DNA of 64,000 bases, from positions 29,635-93,634 of the forward strand of contig JBDRVQ010000001.1 in assembly GCA_039801905.1 (NCBI GenBank). The letters run 5' to 3'. The notes below the pieces were generated by a model that was not told the DNA's origin, ran no database searches, and saw nothing but the letters and a program-made list of their open reading frames with translations. The stretch is from a candidate division WOR-3 bacterium. Its GTDB lineage: Bacteria; Hydrothermota; Tepidihabitantia; Tepidihabitantales; JBDRVQ01. Made by a program: the position numbers and the translations under genes. Position 1 is the stretch's first letter. Every line of letters starts with the position of its first letter. This document shows positions 2,011-57,914 of the stretch, piece after piece.

Positions 2011-2085
2011 TGGTGGAAGGATGAGCAGAAATTGTGCCGGAGAGGAAGATTTACCGAAATGGAACTGAAAATTTAGTGTCAGAAA

Positions 2086-2114
2086 ATGGGGGGTATTTCC
2101 GTATTTATTATAGA
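2086..2114 (+). promoter_or_regulatory. promoter-like element of the copy A leader (ATGGGG-17-TATAGA), 5 nt from the sORF ATG
   Basis: Same layout as copies B and D, which have TTGGGG as the -35. The -35 is weaker here. Confidence 0.35.
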
Positions 2115-2119
2115 GGGCT

Positions 2120-2224
2120 ATGAAGAAGTTAAAAGAAATTATTAAGGTAAGTTATTGGGTTCTAATCCCAACCCTTATCTCAGAAGAGAGATTAAGGAGG
2201 TGTTATGAGATAATTAGCACTTAA
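2120..2224 (+). CDS. candidate leaderless small ORF (34 aa), MKKLKEIIKVSYWVLIPTLISEERLRRCYEIIST
   Basis: The ATG lies 5 nt after the -10-like hexamer. The paralogous copy at 33102-33200 differs by an in-frame 6-nt indel plus point changes. Confidence 0.3.
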   Translation: MKKLKEIIKVSYWVLIPTLISEERLRRCYEIIST

Positions 2225-2320
2225 TAAAAATGGCATTAAATCATAAGACCTTTATCAAACAGGAGGGGTTTATCTTTATAAAAAGGGGTGTAGCATACAG
2301 GGGATGGTATCAGGGATTTA

Positions 2321-2524
2321 ATGGAAGGGATAATAGAAGTTTTAATAAAAGGCGTAATTTTAGACTTAATCGGAGATTTAATAAAGGGTTTAATCAAGAA
2401 TTTAATAGAAGGTCTAAAAGAGGATATAAAGAGAAGGATAATCAGGAGCCTAAGCCAAGGTATAATCCAGAGCCTAATTAAAGGTTTAATCCGAAGTCTA
2501 AATGGAAGCCTAATCCTAAGAGAA
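2321..2524 (+). repeat. 12-nt phased degenerate tandem array, about 17 units (consensus A-T-H-N-R-R-R-N-Y-Y-T-A)
   Basis: Hand-phased units: atagaagtttta|ataaaaggcgta|attttagactta|atcggagattta|ataaagggttta|atcaagaattta|atagaaggtcta... I found no phase-breaking indel. Confidence 0.9.
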
Positions 2525-18973: not shown

Positions 18974-19104
18974 CTTTCCATATTCCCACCACTATCTTTA
19001 AAAGTACCTAAAGCCGATAGAAAACTTGACAATTGCCAACCCATTTATTGGGAGCGGATGGAAAGCGAAGGCTCTACTCAAAAAGAAAAGATTATCCATC
19101 TCCA

Positions 19105-19311
19105 CTAATCATTCTCAATTAGGCTTCCATTTTCCCTTCGGATTAAACCCATAGTTAGACATAGGATTAAACTCTTTATTATCCCTTCTATTAAACTCTG
19201 AATTAAAGTTCCAATTATACCCTCTTTTAGAGTATTTATTAAATCCTCAATTAGATCTCCAATTACGTGTAAAATTATCCCTTATTTTAGACCCTATATT
19301 ATGCCTTCCAT
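19105..19311 (-). repeat. 12-nt phased degenerate tandem array, 17 units
   Basis: Minus strand: atggaaggcata|atatagggtcta|aaataagggata|attttacacgta|attggagatcta|... |attgagaatgat|tag. Confidence 0.9.
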
Positions 19312-19411
19312 TAAATCCCCGATACCATCCCCTGTATGCTACACCCTTTTTACAAAAATAAATCCCTCCTTTCTAAGGATAGTTTTTCTTATCAGTTAGT
19401 TAATTTATTAT

Positions 19412-19439
19412 ATTATAAAGCAATTTTGGAAGATGTCAA
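19412..19439 (-). promoter_or_regulatory. near-consensus sigma70 promoter (TTGACA-16-TATAAT) reading into box + array C
   Basis: Minus strand: attgaca tcttccaaaattgctt tataat ataataaatt. Confidence 0.6.
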
Positions 19440-19471
19440 TCTCTGGGAAAAGCAAGCCGGGATTTCTTACC

Positions 19472-32731: not shown

Positions 32732-33067
32732 TTTTCACCTCTTCACTAAAATTAAGTTTAGGGGAAAAAAAGGGAAAGTCAACATTGGTATGGAAGCAAT
32801 AAGAGAGAAGAGCCACTTTATGGTGGTAGAGATTTTTGACCAAAAGAATTGAATTTCTCGTTGATGATAATACCTTGCCAAAATAAACCTCTCGCCACCT
32901 TCTATTCAAGAAGAAGAGTTACAATCTAAGGAGTGAGCGGAAGATAAAAAGATGAAATAGAACTTTCCCACTTCGGTGGTCACACCCTTCTGAAAAGTGT
33001 CTCTTGAATTAAATAAGTTATTATAAATCAAAGGCTTATAAAAAAGGGGGAAATTTAGTGTCAGAAA

Positions 33068-33096
33068 TTGGGGGGTATTTCCGTATTTATTATAGA
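33068..33096 (+). promoter_or_regulatory. promoter-like element of the copy B leader (TTGGGG-17-TATAGA), 5 nt from the sORF ATG
   Basis: ttgggg ggtatttccgtatttat tataga gggct ATG. Confidence 0.4.
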
Positions 33097-33101
33097 GGGC
33101 T

Positions 33102-33200
33102 ATGAAGAAGTTAAAAGAAATTATTAAGGTAAGTGATTGGGTTCTAATCCCAACCCTTGAAGAGAGATTGAGGAGGTATTATCGGGTAATTAGCACTTAA
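33102..33200 (+). CDS. candidate leaderless small ORF (32 aa), MKKLKEIIKVSDWVLIPTLEERLRRYYRVIST
   Basis: Paralogue of 2120-2224. Both share the same start context and the same stop (AGC ACT TAA). Confidence 0.3.
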   Translation: MKKLKEIIKVSDWVLIPTLEERLRRYYRVIST

Positions 33201-33297
33201 TAAAAATGGCATTAAATAATAAAAAACTTTATCAAACAGGAGGGGTTTATCTTTATAAAAAGGGGTGTAGCATACAGGGGATGGTATCGGGGATTTA

Positions 33298-33516
33298 ATG
33301 GAAGGCATAATCTAAGGCATAATTTTAGGCTTAATCGGAGTTTTAATAGAGGGTTTAATTGAGAATCTAATAAATACTCTAAAAGAAGTTATAACCGGCG
33401 GTATAATCAGAAGCCTAATTCAGAGTTTAATAGAAAGGATAATAAAGAGTTTAATCATGTGTCTAATTAAGGGTTTAATCCGAAGGGAAAATAGAAACCT
33501 AATTGAGAATGATTAG
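33298..33516 (+). repeat. 12-nt phased degenerate tandem array, 18 units
   Basis: atggaaggcata|atctaaggcata|attttaggctta|atcggagtttta|atagagggttta|attgagaatcta|...|attgagaatgat|tag. Confidence 0.9.
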
Positions 33517-33745
33517 TGGAGAAGAATAATCTTTTCTCTTTGAATAGAGCCCTCGCTTTCCATCCGCTCCCAATAAATGGGTAAAACTTTCCCCGGATGC
33601 GCATCGTGTGCCAATGAGGGCAAAATCTGATTTCCTTGCTGGGTGGATACCGGGAAACTATCAATAATAACACCAGAAGGATTTAAGCGGGCACCATAGA
33701 TATCAGATCACAAGATAATTTATGCCATCTTTCCCGGATTTTATG

Positions 33746-46447: not shown

Positions 46448-47410
46448 ATGAAAAAGAGATTATTAGTTTTAATTTTTCTCACCACTGGTTTATTGGGAAA
46501 GGAAGAGTTTCCCGCTTTATTCCCGATTCGGCAAAACTTCCGCTACGGATTGATTGACTCTACGGGAAAAATTGTCGTCAAACCACAACTTGATGGAATT
46601 GATGACTTCTCAGAAGGGATGGCAGTGATTAGAATCAATAACCAGTGGGGTTATATTGATGCCCGGAACTGGCAGGTCTTAAAGACTAAGTTTGAACAGG
46701 TTGGCCGTTTCTCCGAAGGGAAGGCGCGTGTCTTATACAAAGGGAAATGGGGTTATATTGACCGAAATGGGAAATTTGTGATCAAGCCCCAGTTTGAGTT
46801 CGCCGGTGATTTTCGGGAAGGGAAGGCCGCGGTGGGTATTGGGGGCAAGGTTGGTTACATTGATTCTACTGGTAAATTTATTATCAGTCCCCAGTTTTTC
46901 TCCACCTTCAACTTTTCCGAAGGGAGAGCGGGTGTTTTAGTTGGTAATAAACTCGGTTATATTGATTCGACCGGCAAGGTGGTGATTAAACCGATCTTTG
47001 ATTTCATCTGGGACTTTAAGGAAGGTTTGGCTCGGGTAATGGTCAATAGGAAATGGGGTTATATTGACCGAAATGGGAAGTTTGTGATTAAGCCCCGGTT
47101 TGATGAGGCATTTGATTTTTCGGAGAGTCTGGCCGCGGTCCGGGTGAAGGAGAAAATCGGTTATATTGACAAAAAGGGTAAATTTGTTATCAAACCGAAA
47201 TTTAAAGCCGGTGGCGAATTTTCAGAAGGACTTGCCCCGGCCTTAGCCGATAGTCTTTGGGGTTATATTGATAAAACTGGTGAGTTTAAGATTCAACCGA
47301 GTTTTGAAATCGCCTATCCCTTCTTTCGGGGTTTGGCAAAAGTGCAAATGAAAGGAAAGATCGGTTATATTGATAGAAGGGGAATTTTTATCTGGGAGCC
47401 AACGGAGTAG
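46448..47410 (+). CDS. WG-repeat (KWG-type) protein, exported
   Basis: About 8-9 tandem ~35-aa repeats matching GK.V(I/V)KPQF..A.DFSEG.A.V...KWGYID. Signal peptide present. Confidence 0.8.
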   Translation: MKKRLLVLIFLTTGLLGKEEFPALFPIRQNFRYGLIDSTGKIVVKPQLDGIDDFSEGMAVIRINNQWGYIDARNWQVLKTKFEQVGRFSEGKARVLYKGKWGYIDRNGKFVIKPQFEFAGDFREGKAAVGIGGKVGYIDSTGKFIISPQFFSTFNFSEGRAGVLVGNKLGYIDSTGKVVIKPIFDFIWDFKEGLARVMVNRKWGYIDRNGKFVIKPRFDEAFDFSESLAAVRVKEKIGYIDKKGKFVIKPKFKAGGEFSEGLAPALADSLWGYIDKTGEFKIQPSFEIAYPFFRGLAKVQMKGKIGYIDRRGIFIWEPTE

Positions 47411-56541: not shown

Positions 56542-56589
56542 CCTTGGTTTTATAATAAAAAGGACTCTTAAACCCTACTTTTCCCAATC

Positions 56590-56712
56590 AAATAAGTTAT
56601 TAAAAATCAAAGACTTATAAAAAAGGGAAAGATTTGGTGTCCAATTTTTGGGGGTATTTCCGTATTTATTATAGAGGGGTATTGGGTTCTAATCCCAACC
56701 CCGAAAAGAGAG
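56590..56712 (+). repeat. Dispersed composite element, copy D, leader module (promoter + extended hairpin)
   Basis: Positions 56590-56680 are about 85% identical to 33011-33100. The hairpin GGGGTATTGGG-TTCTAAT-CCCAACCCC lies at 56677-56703. Confidence 0.85.
56648..56675 (+). promoter_or_regulatory. promoter-like element of the copy D leader (TTGGGG-16-TATAGA)
   Basis: ttgggg gtatttccgtatttat tataga, followed by the hairpin and then the AAGAGAGG Shine-Dalgarno sequence of ORF 56719. Confidence 0.4.
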
Positions 56713-56718
56713 GTGCGT

Positions 56719-57087
56719 ATGAAAGATGCTTTAAGGCGAATAGAGAAGTATATATCTAAGTTAGAACCAGAGATTATAAGAAGAGATTTTGCCCAATTGA
56801 AAGAGAAGATGCTACAACAGATTACCACCTACTTTATAGAGATCTTTGAGGTTGAGACAAAGGCAAAGGCGATTTTAAGCGAATACGACCTACCGGTTAG
56901 TCTTATCCCCTTTTATCTATGCTATGCCCGGGAATTATATAGCCTTTCTAAGAGATATGCGGGATTTCCTCTCTTCCGGGAGATAAGGATTAGGGAGGGA
57001 AAATGGCGAAATAGAACTCTCCAACCGGAAATTTTAAGAAGGATAAGATTTGATATATTTGGCATAACCTTACCGGAGGAGATATGA
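56719..57087 (+). CDS. hypothetical helical protein (122 aa), paralogue 1 of a tandem pair
   Basis: AAGAGAGG lies 5 nt upstream of the ATG at 56719; the ORF-track start at 56713 is a GTG. It shares 13 of 34 ungapped identities with the next ORF (VETKAKAILSEYDLPVSLIPFYLCYARELYSLSK vs VEEKVKEILEERGISVIYHFAYYAFGRKVYKLLK). Confidence 0.55.
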   Translation: MKDALRRIEKYISKLEPEIIRRDFAQLKEKMLQQITTYFIEIFEVETKAKAILSEYDLPVSLIPFYLCYARELYSLSKRYAGFPLFREIRIREGKWRNRTLQPEILRRIRFDIFGITLPEEI

Positions 57088-57419
57088 GGATTGAGATAAA
57101 GAAGAAGAAGTCACTGGAGAGATTGGCGAAGATGGCAAGGAGATATGCAGTTTATTATCCAGATGCTACAAGGAGTTACCTGAAAGGGATAGTTGACTAT
57201 GTCCTATTTGTGGAAGAGAAGGTGAAAGAGATTTTGGAGGAGCGGGGAATTTCGGTTATTTATCACTTTGCCTATTATGCCTTCGGTAGAAAGGTCTATA
57301 AACTCCTAAAAGAGAAGAAGGATTCCCAAATCCCTTCTTTAATTGAGGAGTGGGTGAAAGATAAATGTCTTTCCCGAGATGTTTTATCAGAGATTAAGGA
57401 GGCTTTATCGGAGAAGTAG
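57084..57419 (+). CDS. hypothetical helical protein (111 aa), paralogue 2 of a tandem pair
   Basis: ATGA overlap with the upstream ORF. GGAGGAG lies upstream. I recognise no family. Confidence 0.55.
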   Translation: MRIEIKKKKSLERLAKMARRYAVYYPDATRSYLKGIVDYVLFVEEKVKEILEERGISVIYHFAYYAFGRKVYKLLKEKKDSQIPSLIEEWVKDKCLSRDVLSEIKEALSEK

Positions 57420-57463
57420 GTCTTAAATAAGACTTAAGTTAAGTGATAAAAATTTTATGATGT

Positions 57464-57715
57464 AGGAGGGTTTTGTCTTTAGAAAAAGGGGTGTAGCATA
57501 CAGGGGATGGTATCGGGGTTCTAATGGAAAGTCTAAGTAACGGTCTAAACTTAGGTCTAATTGGAGTTCTAAATAAGGGTCTAAAAGAAGGTCTAAAAGT
57601 AGGGGTAATAAAAAGAGTAATTGGAAATCTAATTAAGAGTCTAATTGAAAATTTAATCCGAAGTCTAATTATAGTTTTAACCGAAAGCCCAATTGAAAGT
57701 CTAACCTCAAGTCTA
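57464..57715 (+). repeat. Dispersed composite element, copy D, box + 12-nt phased array (16 units from 57524)
   Basis: AGGAGGGTTTTGTCTTTAGAAAAAGGGGTGTAGCATACAGGGGATGGTATCGGGGTTCTAATGGAAAG, followed by agtaacggtcta|aacttaggtcta|attggagttcta|aataagggtcta|... (unit consensus aaGTCTAAtt). Confidence 0.9.
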
Positions 57716-57755
57716 AATATCGGCTCGGTGAAAATAGGGGAGGGCAATAACACTA

Positions 57756-57784
57756 TTGACAAGAATACTTTTTTTGTGTATATT
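57756..57784 (+). promoter_or_regulatory. sigma70 promoter (TTGACA-17-TATATT) upstream of the HU gene
   Basis: ttgaca agaatactttttttgtg tatatt ttagga ATG. It gives a 5' region of about 125 nt ahead of the HU ATG. Confidence 0.55.
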
Positions 57785-57914
57785 TTAGGAATGGAAGTGG
57801 CGATAGCGCCCCTCGGGGCAATACCTTGCCAAATCAATCTTTTCCCAACCATTTCTCTTTTAATAAGAAACTATCGTCCACCTTCCAAAAATCCTATTAA
57901 GGGGGTGATAAAAT

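What the first reader, a model, noticed from the sequence alone, without database searches (positions are those of the whole stretch)
56719..57419. Tandem pair of paralogous small helical proteins with no family I recognise
The two ORFs (122 and 111 aa) overlap by ATGA and share a core at equivalent positions. ...FEVETKAKAILSEYDLPVSLIPFYLCYARELYSLSK aligns with ...LFVEEKVKEILEERGISVIYHFAYYAFGRKVYKLLK at 13 of 34 ungapped identities, by hand alignment. Both are Lys/Arg/Glu-rich and predicted to be helical, with an aromatic-rich central helix and no signal peptide or TM. They are the only protein-coding cargo found inside the repeated element. I see no nuclease, HEPN, HTH or toxin-antitoxin signature that I can defend.
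Basis: seen in the sequence. Interest (0 to 1): 0.45.

Follow-up and report, generated by a model that had tools for sequence, protein, structure and literature searches.

The report
Archaeal-virus capsid homologues in a bacterium
The two small overlapping genes are real, conserved paralogues whose fold matches the DNA-wrapping capsid protein of filamentous archaeal viruses, yet they sit in a bacterial (WOR-3) chromosome next to a DNA array whose 12-bp period equals the 12 bp that each capsid-protein dimer covers in those viruses.

Summary
ORF1 (56719-57087) and ORF2 (57084-57419) overlap by ATGA, are under purifying selection (dN/dS 0.1-0.25) and are paralogues (hhalign E 1e-5, reciprocal HMM hits).

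Those capsid proteins act as homodimers or as heterodimers of adjacent paralogues, and each dimer wraps 12 bp of A-form DNA. Here the pair lies in a bacterial chromosome with no other viral gene.

A conserved 50-nt leader follows ORF2, then 17-21 in-phase 12-nt units (RRGTYTAATNN). The units are constrained at the nucleotide level and are not coding.

I infer, but have not shown, a DNA-coating heterodimer that assembles on these arrays. Three ORF-less copies lie in the same window. The held literature reports no bacterial homologue. Interest is high.

The parts
56586..56712 (+). Conserved upstream block ('module A') of the element, with the ribosome-binding site GAGAGG just before ORF1
   Evidence: Repeat families D4 and D10: 87% identical to 33007-33103 and shared with 2069-2176. 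Also present upstream of the pair in L005, L007 and, more diverged, L001. No strong sigma-70 consensus was found here, so any promoter role is inferred.
56682..56698 (+). Palindrome/hairpin TTGGG-TTCTAAT-CCCAA carrying one copy of the array motif (TCTAAT) in its loop, 20 nt upstream of the ORF1 start
   Evidence: Read from the sequence. Conserved in c1, c2, L001 and L007 but absent in L005/L006, where the ORFs are intact, so it is dispensable.
56719..57087 (+). ORF1, 122 aa, basic (pI 9.4); paralogue of ORF2 and the inferred MCP1-like subunit
   Evidence: dN/dS is 0.10-0.26. The A1 HMM hits the L015 paralogues at 1e-15 and 5e-8. The joint profile A5 hits the SIRV2 capsid protein over its full length.
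57084..57419 (+). ORF2, 111 aa, basic (pI 9.4); SIRV2-fold capsid-protein homologue with an N-terminal helical arm and a four-helix bundle
57464..57516 (+). Conserved ~50-nt leader AGGAGGG.TTT.TCTTTA.AAAAAGGGGTGTAGCATACAGGGGATGGTATCGG that precedes every array, always on the same side
   Evidence: An alignment of 11 copies from the window and 7 loci is nearly invariant and shows no RNA structure or covariation (-2.7 kcal/mol). An exact 22-mer from it occurs only in one WOR-3 species representative among 185,579 genomes.
57517..57720 (+). Array of 17 in-phase 12-nt units, consensus RRGTYTAATNN (204 bp), ending 36 bp before the -35 box of the HU gene promoter (57756-57784)
   Evidence: Across 175 units from 10 arrays there are no phase-breaking indels, and the information sits in T-A-A (1.1-1.5 bits per position). 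Nucleotide-level constraint is shown.
2064..2517 (+). Copy c1, ORF-less: module A (2064-2176), remnant of the last 10 codons of ORF2 (2188-2217), leader (2261-2313), 17-unit array (2314-2517)
   Evidence: It has the same deletion junction as c2: AGAG microhomology that removes ORF1-ORF2.
33007..33582 (+). Copy c2, ORF-less: module A (33007-33158), ORF2 3' remnant (33164-33193), leader (33238-33290), 18-unit array (33291-33506), and a tail shared with c4 (to 33582)
19039..19370 (-). Copy c4, with leader and array only: leader 19370-19319, 18-unit array 19318-19103, tail to 19039. Upstream is an unrelated TTGACA-17-TATAAT promoter-like site; downstream is tRNA-Lys

Best explanation
ORF1 and ORF2 are bacterial chromosomal homologues of the SIRV2-type major capsid protein of filamentous archaeal viruses (realm Adnaviria). 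I consider this effectively shown, about 0.9. By analogy with AFV1, SIFV and PFV2, they most likely form a pseudo-symmetric heterodimer. In those viruses two adjacent paralogous genes make a heterodimer whose basic N-terminal arms and four-helix bundles wrap dsDNA and hold it in A-form, 12 bp per dimer. This step is inferred, about 0.55. The leader plus the 12-bp-phased TAAT array immediately downstream is the most likely cognate assembly site. Each 12-bp unit would present the same sequence to each successive heterodimer, so 17-21 dimers would coat about 200-250 bp, roughly 1.2-2 superhelical turns in virion geometry. This step is inferred, about 0.35-0.4. ORF-less leader+array copies elsewhere in the chromosome would be coated in trans. 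The purpose is unknown. The most likely options are a local chromatin-like or insulating structure next to promoters, or a role in the maintenance or spread of the repeated element itself. The pair is either a capsid protein captured from a virus and kept by the host, or a cellular relative of the virus protein.
For: Fold and homology:
- The ORF2-family profile plus distant relatives hits AFV1 ORF132 (E 1e-4) and the SIRV2 coat protein (E 5e-4); 7 of the top 9 PDB hits are filamentous-virus capsid proteins.
- The joint ORF1+ORF2 profile aligns with the SIRV2 MCP over its full length (3-115 vs 2-119, E 5e-4).
- Family member P0017 passes the Pfam PF12193 cut-off (36.9 vs 25.2 bits, E 4.6e-9), and 11 of 17 members hit PF12193. 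P0017 had been found with the ORF2-only profile at E 1.5e-4 among 1.84e9 proteins.
- In a blind test, the family HMM run against 1299 six-frame fragments of the AFV1, SIRV2 and SIFV genomes ranks four of their five MCP genes first.

Heterodimer analogy:
- The two genes are adjacent, overlapping paralogues, as AFV1 ORF140/ORF132 are.
- Both are basic with K/R-rich N-termini and both are under purifying selection.
- The pairing of an ORF1-like with an ORF2-like gene recurs in a distant high-GC bacterium, L015.

Array link:
- AFV1 and PFV2 bind 12 bp per dimer (PMC5517147; PMC7189273).
- The arrays keep exact 12-nt phase over 13-21 units in 10 independent copies.
- The array follows ORF2 in every WOR-3 locus, including L001, where dS is above 2 and the non-motif positions are randomised.
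- The motif is constrained at the nucleotide level, not the codon level.
Against: - ORF1 and ORF2 themselves fall below the Pfam gathering threshold (17.6 bits for ORF2; no MCP hit for ORF1 alone).
- ORF1's fold was not modelled.
- No dimer or DNA complex could be modelled with these tools.
- Viral MCPs bind DNA without sequence preference, so a sequence-specific array is a departure from the known family.
- Distant family members (L015, L018, L023) have no such array, and adnavirus genomes have none either.
- A 12-nt period is also a multiple of three.
- The arrays lie downstream of promoters or ORFs with no terminator between, so they may act as RNA.
- The N-terminal arm is shorter than in SIRV2 and is modelled with lower confidence.
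- All the genomes are metagenome-assembled.
Confidence: 0.5

Rival explanations
1. The pair is a capsid-derived DNA-binding heterodimer, but the 12-nt arrays are unrelated to it. The arrays and leader would be a separate dispersed repeat, bound by some other factor or structural in themselves, into which or beside which the gene pair happens to sit.
For: Three of the four array copies in the window lack the ORFs, and c4 also lacks module A. Distant homologues have no arrays. Viral MCPs are not sequence-specific (established knowledge, PMC5517147).
Against: The array directly follows ORF2 in all WOR-3 loci, including the deeply diverged L001. c1 and c2 carry remnants of ORF2, so they descend from a full-length element rather than the reverse. 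The period equals the 12-bp dimer footprint conserved across three virus families.
Confidence: 0.25
2. The array works as RNA. It would be transcribed as the 3' part of the ORF1-ORF2 message, or from other promoters in the ORF-less copies, and its roughly 18 YUAAU motifs would bind the proteins or another RNA-binding protein, as a ribonucleoprotein filament or a sponge. The UCUAAU hairpin loop in the ORF1 5' UTR would be an autoregulatory site.
For: No terminator lies between ORF2 and the array. Every copy lies downstream of module A or of a consensus-like promoter in the same orientation. One motif copy sits in a hairpin loop before the ORF1 ribosome-binding site. The array RNA is unusually unstructured (z +1.99), as a single-stranded binding platform would be.
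Against: The SIRV2 fold is known only as a dsDNA wrapper. There is no conserved RNA structure or covariation and no Rfam match. The 5' hairpin is absent in L005/L006.
Confidence: 0.15
3. The element is a decaying remnant of an integrated virus or mobile element, possibly from an undiscovered adnavirus-like virus of bacteria, and has no host function.
For: The element is multicopy, and an ORF-deleted derivative was copied (c1 and c2 share one deletion junction). Truncated copies exist (L007-L010, 48+84 aa). Flank combinations differ between related MAGs. One copy lies beside an nSTAND NTPase and a restriction-modification methylase.
Against: Both ORFs are under purifying selection, and the GT2...HU locus is syntenic across genomes with dS of 0.3-0.8. 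No other viral gene, integrase or replication gene is adjacent. There are no relatives in IMG/VR, the phage collection or the plasmid collection.
Confidence: 0.1
4. The array encodes a small protein made of 4-residue repeats (x-L/I/V-I/T/N-x)n that works with ORF1/ORF2 as a third gene of the operon.
For: The period is a multiple of three. One + frame is open in c1, c3, L005 and L011. Gene callers annotate a 137-aa ORF there.
Against: - There are in-frame stops in 6 of 10 arrays, and the ATG is not conserved (read from the sequences).
- The would-be hydrophobic codon is NTA in over 83% of units, against 22.7% of L/I/V codons in real genes. CTA, the rarest Leu codon (4.9%), is the commonest in the arrays.
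- The invariant base is a third codon position, while the first position varies.
- Annotators chose opposite strands for near-identical arrays.
- There is no PHROG hit.
Confidence: 0.05

Closest known systems
Heterodimeric major capsid proteins MCP1/MCP2 of enveloped filamentous archaeal viruses (AFV1 ORF140/ORF132, SIFV, SFV1, PFV2; Pfam PF12193 Sulf_coat_C, PF21660 MCP_C)
   Same: Size is similar (111-124 aa vs 128-140 aa). [quoted passage not shown] Both are two adjacent paralogous genes with overlapping stop and start. ORF1 and ORF2 are both basic; of the AFV1 pair only ORF132 is (pI 9.36; ORF140 5.17). The adjacent array has a 12-bp period, and each viral dimer covers 12 bp of DNA.
   Different: The pair is encoded in a bacterial chromosome (WOR-3), with no other viral genes. 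Sequence similarity is detectable only with profiles. The N-terminal arm is shorter. The pair is associated with a sequence-defined array, whereas the viral proteins coat a whole genome without sequence preference. There is no evidence of virions.
Homodimeric capsid protein of rudiviruses (SIRV2 ORF134, SSRV1)
   Different: Rudiviruses use one gene and a symmetric homodimer. Here there are two diverged paralogues.
Centromere-like iteron arrays bound by small dimeric proteins (ParR-parC of plasmids R1/pSK41; omega protein heptad arrays). The comparison is from memory and was not tested here.
   Same: A small protein gene lies next to a tandem array of short phased repeats. Cooperative binding of one dimer per repeat would build a helical nucleoprotein segment.
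   Different: The protein fold is unrelated (ribbon-helix-helix vs SIRV2 fold). There is no partner NTPase here. The period differs (about 7, 10-11 or 20 bp vs 12 bp). These copies are chromosomal and dispersed.
Alpha/beta-type small acid-soluble spore proteins of Bacillus. The comparison is from memory and is a functional analogy only.
   Same: They are small bacterial proteins that coat dsDNA and shift it towards A-like geometry to protect it.
   Different: There is no sequence or fold relationship, no cognate repeat array, and they are spore-specific.

Membership tests
SIRV2-type major capsid protein superfamily (Adnaviria MCP; Pfam PF12193/PF21660) | [quoted passage not shown] | tested here: met
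SIRV2-type major capsid protein superfamily (Adnaviria MCP; Pfam PF12193/PF21660) | Sequence membership: a score above the Pfam gathering threshold | tested here: not met
   ORF2 scores 17.6 bits against a 25.2-bit cut-off for PF12193 and 17.1 against 27 for PF21660. ORF1 has no hit. Family member P0017 does pass (36.9 bits), and family profiles hit solved MCPs at E 1e-4 to 5e-4. The result is remote homology, not Pfam-level membership.
SIRV2-type major capsid protein superfamily (Adnaviria MCP; Pfam PF12193/PF21660) | Forms a homodimer, or a heterodimer of two adjacent paralogues | not testable with these tools
   The gene arrangement matches: adjacent paralogues with an ATGA overlap, compared with the 1-nt overlap of AFV1 ORF140/ORF132. 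No multimer prediction was available.
SIRV2-type major capsid protein superfamily (Adnaviria MCP; Pfam PF12193/PF21660) | Wraps dsDNA in A-form, 12 bp per dimer | not testable with these tools
   The evidence is circumstantial only: basic proteins and an adjacent array with an exact 12-bp period, set against 12 bp per dimer in AFV1 and PFV2.
Adnaviria virus or provirus | The MCP genes lie within a viral genome alongside other virion, replication and glycosyltransferase genes | tested here: not met
   The neighbours are bacterial housekeeping genes: a GT2/LPG-synthase/HisC operon, HU, MtnA, recA, cmk and tRNA-Lys. There are no relatives in IMG/VR or the phage collection. The adjacent GT2 gene is found at only one of several insertion contexts.
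Structured non-coding RNA (for the leader and array) | Conserved secondary structure with covariation, or a match to a curated family | tested here: not met
   There is no Rfam hit. RNAalifold gives -2.7 kcal/mol with 0 compensatory pairs. Folding z-scores are +1.99 and -0.19.
Protein-coding tandem repeat (for the array) | An open frame with a conserved start, and codon-like substitution with the third position most variable | tested here: not met
   There are stops in 6 of 10 arrays, and no conserved ATG (read from the sequences). The invariant A is a third codon position. NTA use exceeds 83% against 22.7% in real genes.
Transposon / MITE | Terminal inverted repeats, target-site duplication and sharp common boundaries | tested here: inconclusive
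   The copies share modules with differing boundaries, and I saw no TIR or TSD. However, c1 and c2 share one internal deletion junction, so an ORF-less derivative was copied at least once.

The most novel reading that the evidence does not exclude
A bacterium keeps a capsid-protein heterodimer of the archaeal filamentous-virus type as a cellular system. The heterodimer would assemble short stretches of A-form-DNA nucleoprotein, like small pieces of virus nucleocapsid, at 12-bp-phased sites scattered through its chromosome. This would be the first occurrence of the Adnaviria capsid fold outside archaeal viruses, and it would represent either a capture of the capsid gene across domains or a cellular relative of the virus protein.
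Probability: 0.35. Interest if true: 0.92.

Novelty: new variant of a known kind. Interest (0 to 1): 0.8.

Why it matters
Reviews describe the SIRV2-type capsid protein as a unique alpha-helical MCP, and its realm, Adnaviria, as confined to archaea and unconnected to any bacterial or eukaryotic viruses (PMC10848233). I found no report of a bacterial or cellular homologue in the held literature.

A conserved pair in bacterial chromosomes, under selection, opens the question of where this capsid came from. It could be a cellular ancestor, or a virus-to-bacterium transfer, possibly in hot springs.

If the 12-bp array is the binding site, the system would be sequence-programmed and of finite length, which makes it tractable for studying how this fold drives the B-to-A DNA transition. 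It would also be a new kind of bacterial chromatin element.

In practical terms, these 'hypothetical proteins' in WOR-3 genomes can now be annotated.

Tried and rejected
- **Single-sequence searches.** Pfam and PHROGs on ORF1 or ORF2 alone gave only sub-threshold hits. BLASTP between the two ORFs missed the homology. The ORF1-only profile against PDB and Pfam gave only chance-level hits: Cap12 and ribose-5-phosphate isomerase.
- **First structure model.** The AF2 model from 6 close sequences was poor (pLDDT 65). It was replaced by a model from the 17-sequence joint alignment.
- **Searches that found nothing.** IMG/VR has no relatives of ORF2, P0015, P0017 or P0023. tblastn of ORF2 and P0017 against phage and plasmid collections found nothing. 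tblastn with AFV1 ORF132 finds only AFV1, so I could not build a broad MCP profile that way.
- **Searches that added little.** The metagenome scan only re-found L001. Alignment A4 was too divergent for locus scanning.
- **Tools or papers unavailable.** The AFDB50 fold library was not available. The Adnaviria realm paper and the Krupovic-Koonin 2017 paper are not held.
- **Array as structured RNA: rejected**.
- **Array as coding repeat, on either strand: rejected**.
- **12-bp arrays near distant homologues or in adnavirus genomes: none found**.
- **Replication origin or parS-like clustering:** the GC-skew profile gives no signal.
- **Toxin-antitoxin, HTH regulator or nuclease:** no support in any search.
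Full report
**1. The observation**

ORF1 (56719-57087, 122 aa) and ORF2 (57084-57419, 111 aa) exist as described and overlap in ATGA. Taken alone it is only modestly above chance. The Smith-Waterman score is 50 against shuffles of 31.8 +/- 5.8, with 18 of 2000 shuffles reaching it, and BLASTP misses it.

Both ORFs have homologues only in candidate division WOR-3 metagenome-assembled genomes. All of these are unannotated 'hypothetical proteins' without Pfam domains. Both are under purifying selection: dN/dS is 0.10-0.26 for ORF1 and 0.12-0.24 for ORF2, including a comparison where dS exceeds 2.

Family profiles establish the paralogy:
- hhalign of the two family alignments gives E 1.1e-5 over 73 columns.
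- Each family's HMM finds the other family, and nothing spurious, among 4415 six-frame fragments.
- Both families find the same bridging paralogues in a distant locus, L015.
- A joint alignment shows ORF1 aligning along its whole length with the P0016/P0020-23 group, which was retrieved with the ORF2 profile.

**2. What the proteins are**

ORF2 alone gave weak Pfam hits to two related families, Sulf_coat_C (PF12193) and MCP_C (PF21660), at E about 0.005.

An exhaustive HMMER search of 1.84 billion representative proteins with the ORF2-family profile found only ten proteins at E below 1e-3. The family is very small. Adding these distant members sharpened the signal in several independent ways:
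- Against all PDB sequences, the profile hits AFV1 ORF132 (E 1e-4), the SIRV2 coat protein (E 5e-4), and the AFV1-132 crystal fragment, SSRV1, AFV1-140 and SIRV C-terminal domain entries. That is 7 of the top 9 hits.
- The joint ORF1+ORF2 profile aligns with the SIRV2 capsid protein over essentially its whole length, 3-115 against 2-119, at E 5e-4.
- Eleven of 17 family members hit PF12193. One of them, P0017, passes the curated threshold (36.9 against 25.2 bits, E 4.6e-9, profile positions 7-124 of 134). P0017 had been found with the ORF2-only profile.
- An AlphaFold2 model of ORF2 built on the 17-sequence alignment, without templates, has mean pLDDT 83.6. It shows an N-terminal helix (2-24) followed by four helices (30-54, 58-76, 80-94, 98-109).
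- Foldseek against the PDB and against BFVD agrees.
- As a blind specificity test I ran the family HMM against all 1299 six-frame fragments of the complete AFV1 and SIRV2 genomes and 40 kb of SIFV. The four best hits were SIRV2 ORF134, AFV1 ORF132, AFV1 ORF140 and SIFV0035. These are four of the five capsid genes in those genomes.

I regard membership of the SIRV2-fold superfamily as established at the level of remote homology.

**3. What is known about that family**

In rudiviruses the capsid protein is a homodimer. In lipothrixviruses and tristromaviruses it is a heterodimer of two paralogues. [quoted passage not shown] The dimer wraps linear dsDNA and holds it in A-form (PMC7189273; PMC5517147).

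The asymmetric unit is one dimer plus 12 bp of DNA in AFV1 and in PFV2. AFV1's two capsid genes, ORF140 and ORF132, are adjacent and overlap by one base. ORF1/ORF2 are arranged the same way.

**4. Genomic setting**

The window is bacterial. It carries HU, RecA, AlaRS, cytidylate kinase, a sigma-54 activator and tRNA-Lys. The public relatives are labelled candidate division WOR-3.

The pair is not in a provirus. Its neighbours here are a GT2 glycosyltransferase operon, transcribed divergently, and the HU gene. The same GT2...HU synteny is seen for the right-hand flank (HU, MtnA) in genomes whose ORF2 is only 71-72% identical (L005, L006) and for both flanks in a closer genome (L003, 87%).

Other copies lie in different contexts:
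- beside cobA (L001);
- beside Peptidase_M48/LemA, and next to an nSTAND NTPase and a restriction-modification methylase (L002);
- as a truncated 48+84-aa version between a peptidase M20 gene and a phosphoribosyltransferase gene (L007-L010).

Flank combinations differ among closely related MAGs: GT2|HU, UDP-glucose dehydrogenase|HU, GT2|M48 and nSTAND|M48. This means either recombination between element copies or assembly chimeras at a repeat. Several contigs end inside the element.

A distant, high-GC (62.6%) bacterial contig, L015, lies between a sigma-54 activator and an Fe-hydrogenase. It carries four tandem small genes, of which at least three are family members, including one ORF1-like and one ORF2-like. 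The pairing of the two subtypes is therefore old.

**5. The rest of the element**

One search shows four copies of a repeated element in the window. Only the copy in the finding (c3) holds the ORFs. Its anatomy is:
- a conserved upstream block (56586-56712), which includes a palindrome TTGGG-TTCTAAT-CCCAA;
- ORF1 and ORF2;
- a spacer of about 45 nt;
- a nearly invariant leader of about 50 nt (57464-57516);
- an array of 12-nt units (57517-57720).

Copies c1 (2064-2517) and c2 (33007-33582) are deletion derivatives. At the same AGAG microhomology junction they have lost everything from the ORF1 start to the eleventh-last codon of ORF2. What remains of ORF2 still reads ...EIEEVLSGN* in frame, against SEIKEALSEK* in c3. 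Because both share the junction, an ORF-less derivative was itself copied. Copy c4 (19039-19370, minus strand) has only the leader, the array and a tail shared with c2. It sits behind an unrelated consensus-like promoter and ahead of tRNA-Lys.

**6. The array**

I phased ten distinct arrays, four from the window and six from related loci, 175 units in all. Each holds 13-21 units with no phase-breaking indel. The consensus is RRGTYTAATNN, and the information is concentrated in T-A-A at 1.1-1.5 bits per position.

In L001 synonymous sites of the ORFs are saturated. There the non-motif positions of the array are randomised, but the period, the motif, the unit count (18) and the position right after ORF2 are all kept.

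The array is not a coding repeat, for these reasons:
- The one mostly open + frame has stops in 6 of 10 arrays, and the candidate ATG is not conserved (read from the sequences).
- The would-be hydrophobic codon is NTA in more than 83% of units. Only 22.7% of Leu/Ile/Val codons in 17 real genes of the window are NTA.
- CTA is the rarest Leu codon in those genes (4.9%) but the commonest in the array.
- The invariant A would be a third codon position, while the first position varies freely.
- The same argument applies to the minus-strand frame, where the T of ATT would be invariant.
- Annotators called the 137-aa ORF on opposite strands in two near-identical loci.

It is not a structured RNA either. 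There is no Rfam match and no covariation, and folding z-scores are +1.99 and -0.19. No terminator-like site separates ORF2 from the array, so transcription through it is possible.

No comparable array exists near the distant homologues or in the three adnavirus genomes.

**7. Most likely mechanism**

The shown facts are these:
- There are two conserved, basic, SIRV2-fold paralogues, probably translationally coupled (ATGA overlap).
- A conserved leader and a 12-bp-phased array are inherited with them.
- Extra ORF-less array copies exist in the same chromosome.

The rest is inference. The two proteins would form a pseudo-symmetric heterodimer like AFV1 MCP1/MCP2 and coat duplex DNA.

In virions, DNA twist (about 11 bp per turn) combined with supercoiling makes each successive dimer meet the DNA in the same way every 12 bp. 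A sequence with an exact 12-bp period would therefore place the same TAAT motif in the same position under every dimer. That is what one would expect of a programmed nucleation or assembly site.

Seventeen to 21 units would take 17-21 dimers. This corresponds to about 1.2 turns in SIRV2 or PFV2 geometry (14.7 and 15.7 dimers per turn) or about 2 turns in AFV1 geometry (9.3 per turn).

The invariant, polar leader could set the start point. The ORF-less copies would be coated in trans.

The purpose is open. Several arrays end just upstream of promoters: HU at 57756-57784, cobA in L001, and tRNA-Lys some 100 bp beyond c4. A local silencing or insulating structure is therefore plausible. A role in the spread of the element is equally so.

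My confidence is about 0.9 for the fold, about 0.55 for the DNA-binding heterodimer, and about 0.35-0.4 for the array as its site.

**8. Rivals**

- The arrays belong to a separate repeat and are bound by something else.
- The arrays act as RNA. One motif copy sits in a hairpin loop in the ORF1 5' UTR, but that hairpin is missing in L005/L006.
- The element is a decaying viral or mobile remnant. This is contradicted by purifying selection and synteny.
- The array encodes a repeat peptide. This is contradicted as set out in section 6.

**9. Novelty and verdict**

The fold and its DNA-wrapping role are known. The new points are its occurrence in bacteria, in a chromosomal non-viral context, as a conserved paralogue pair, and coupled to a sequence-defined 12-bp array. 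I file it as a new variant of a known kind.

The system-level reading, of short programmed nucleocapsid-like segments in a bacterial chromosome, would be categorically new if confirmed.

Caveats:
- All the genomes are MAGs.
- The thermophilic, hot-spring origin is only inferred from isolate names such as JZ-2 and was not verified.
- No multimer or DNA-complex modelling was possible.
- The array-protein link rests on co-inheritance and on the numerical match of the period.

Noticed in passing
window 46547-47400: There are seven or more tandem 102-nt (34-aa) coding repeats of the type 'KxGYIDxxGKxVIxPxF', which looks like a WG-type beta-repeat protein (repeat families D3, D5, D6). They are unrelated to the finding.
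   Followed up: no
window 32869-32899 and 57820-57850: A 31-nt motif, AATACCTTGCCAAA..C..C.C.CC.ACC, is shared at 77% identity between the recA upstream region (just left of copy c2) and the 5' leader of the HU gene (just right of the c3 array) (D18). It may be a further module of the repeat or a shared regulatory or leader sequence.
   Followed up: no
window 57420-57436: A perfect palindrome, GTCTTA-AA-TAAGAC, lies immediately after the ORF2 stop codon. A similar sequence is present in L007 (GGTCTTAAATAAGATC). No T-run follows it, so it is not a typical terminator.
   Followed up: partly
L015 2300-3787 (ENA ERZ27297438 contig, 62.6% GC): Four tandem small genes (126, 92, 157 and 125 aa) lie between a sigma-54 activator and an Fe-hydrogenase operon. 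At least three belong to the same SIRV2-fold family, including one ORF1-like and one ORF2-like. There is no 12-bp array. This is a second bacterial lineage with the family.
   Followed up: partly
L018 1-11706 (Logan SRR34261217 contig): An 81-aa family member (P0015) lacks the N-terminal arm. It sits among mostly unannotated genes together with HEPN_RiboL-PSP, NucS-like and Cas4/PD-(D/E)XK nuclease genes. This may be a mobile element or defence island of unknown host.
   Followed up: partly
L023 296-1169 (Logan SRR32459161, 1.4-kb contig): P0017 is the only family member that passes the Pfam PF12193 threshold. It is followed by a 49-aa ribbon-helix-helix-like ORF and a 99-aa ORF. It may come from an uncharacterised virus, but it has no BLAST-level relative in the phage collection or IMG/VR.
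   Followed up: partly
L002 664-5252: In one related MAG the full-length element lies directly beside an nSTAND-type NTPase and an MmeI/Eco57I-like N6-methyltransferase, which is a defence-island-like neighbourhood.
   Followed up: no
L002, L003, L004, L024, L025: Identical or near-identical ORF1/ORF2 copies are flanked by four different left|right combinations in closely related MAGs, and several contigs end inside the array. This means either recombination between element copies or assembly chimeras at the repeat.
   Followed up: partly
window 19400-19445 (minus strand): A near-consensus sigma-70 promoter-like site, TTGACA-17-TATAAT, points into the ORF-less leader+array copy c4. This suggests that the array can be transcribed on its own.
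   Followed up: no
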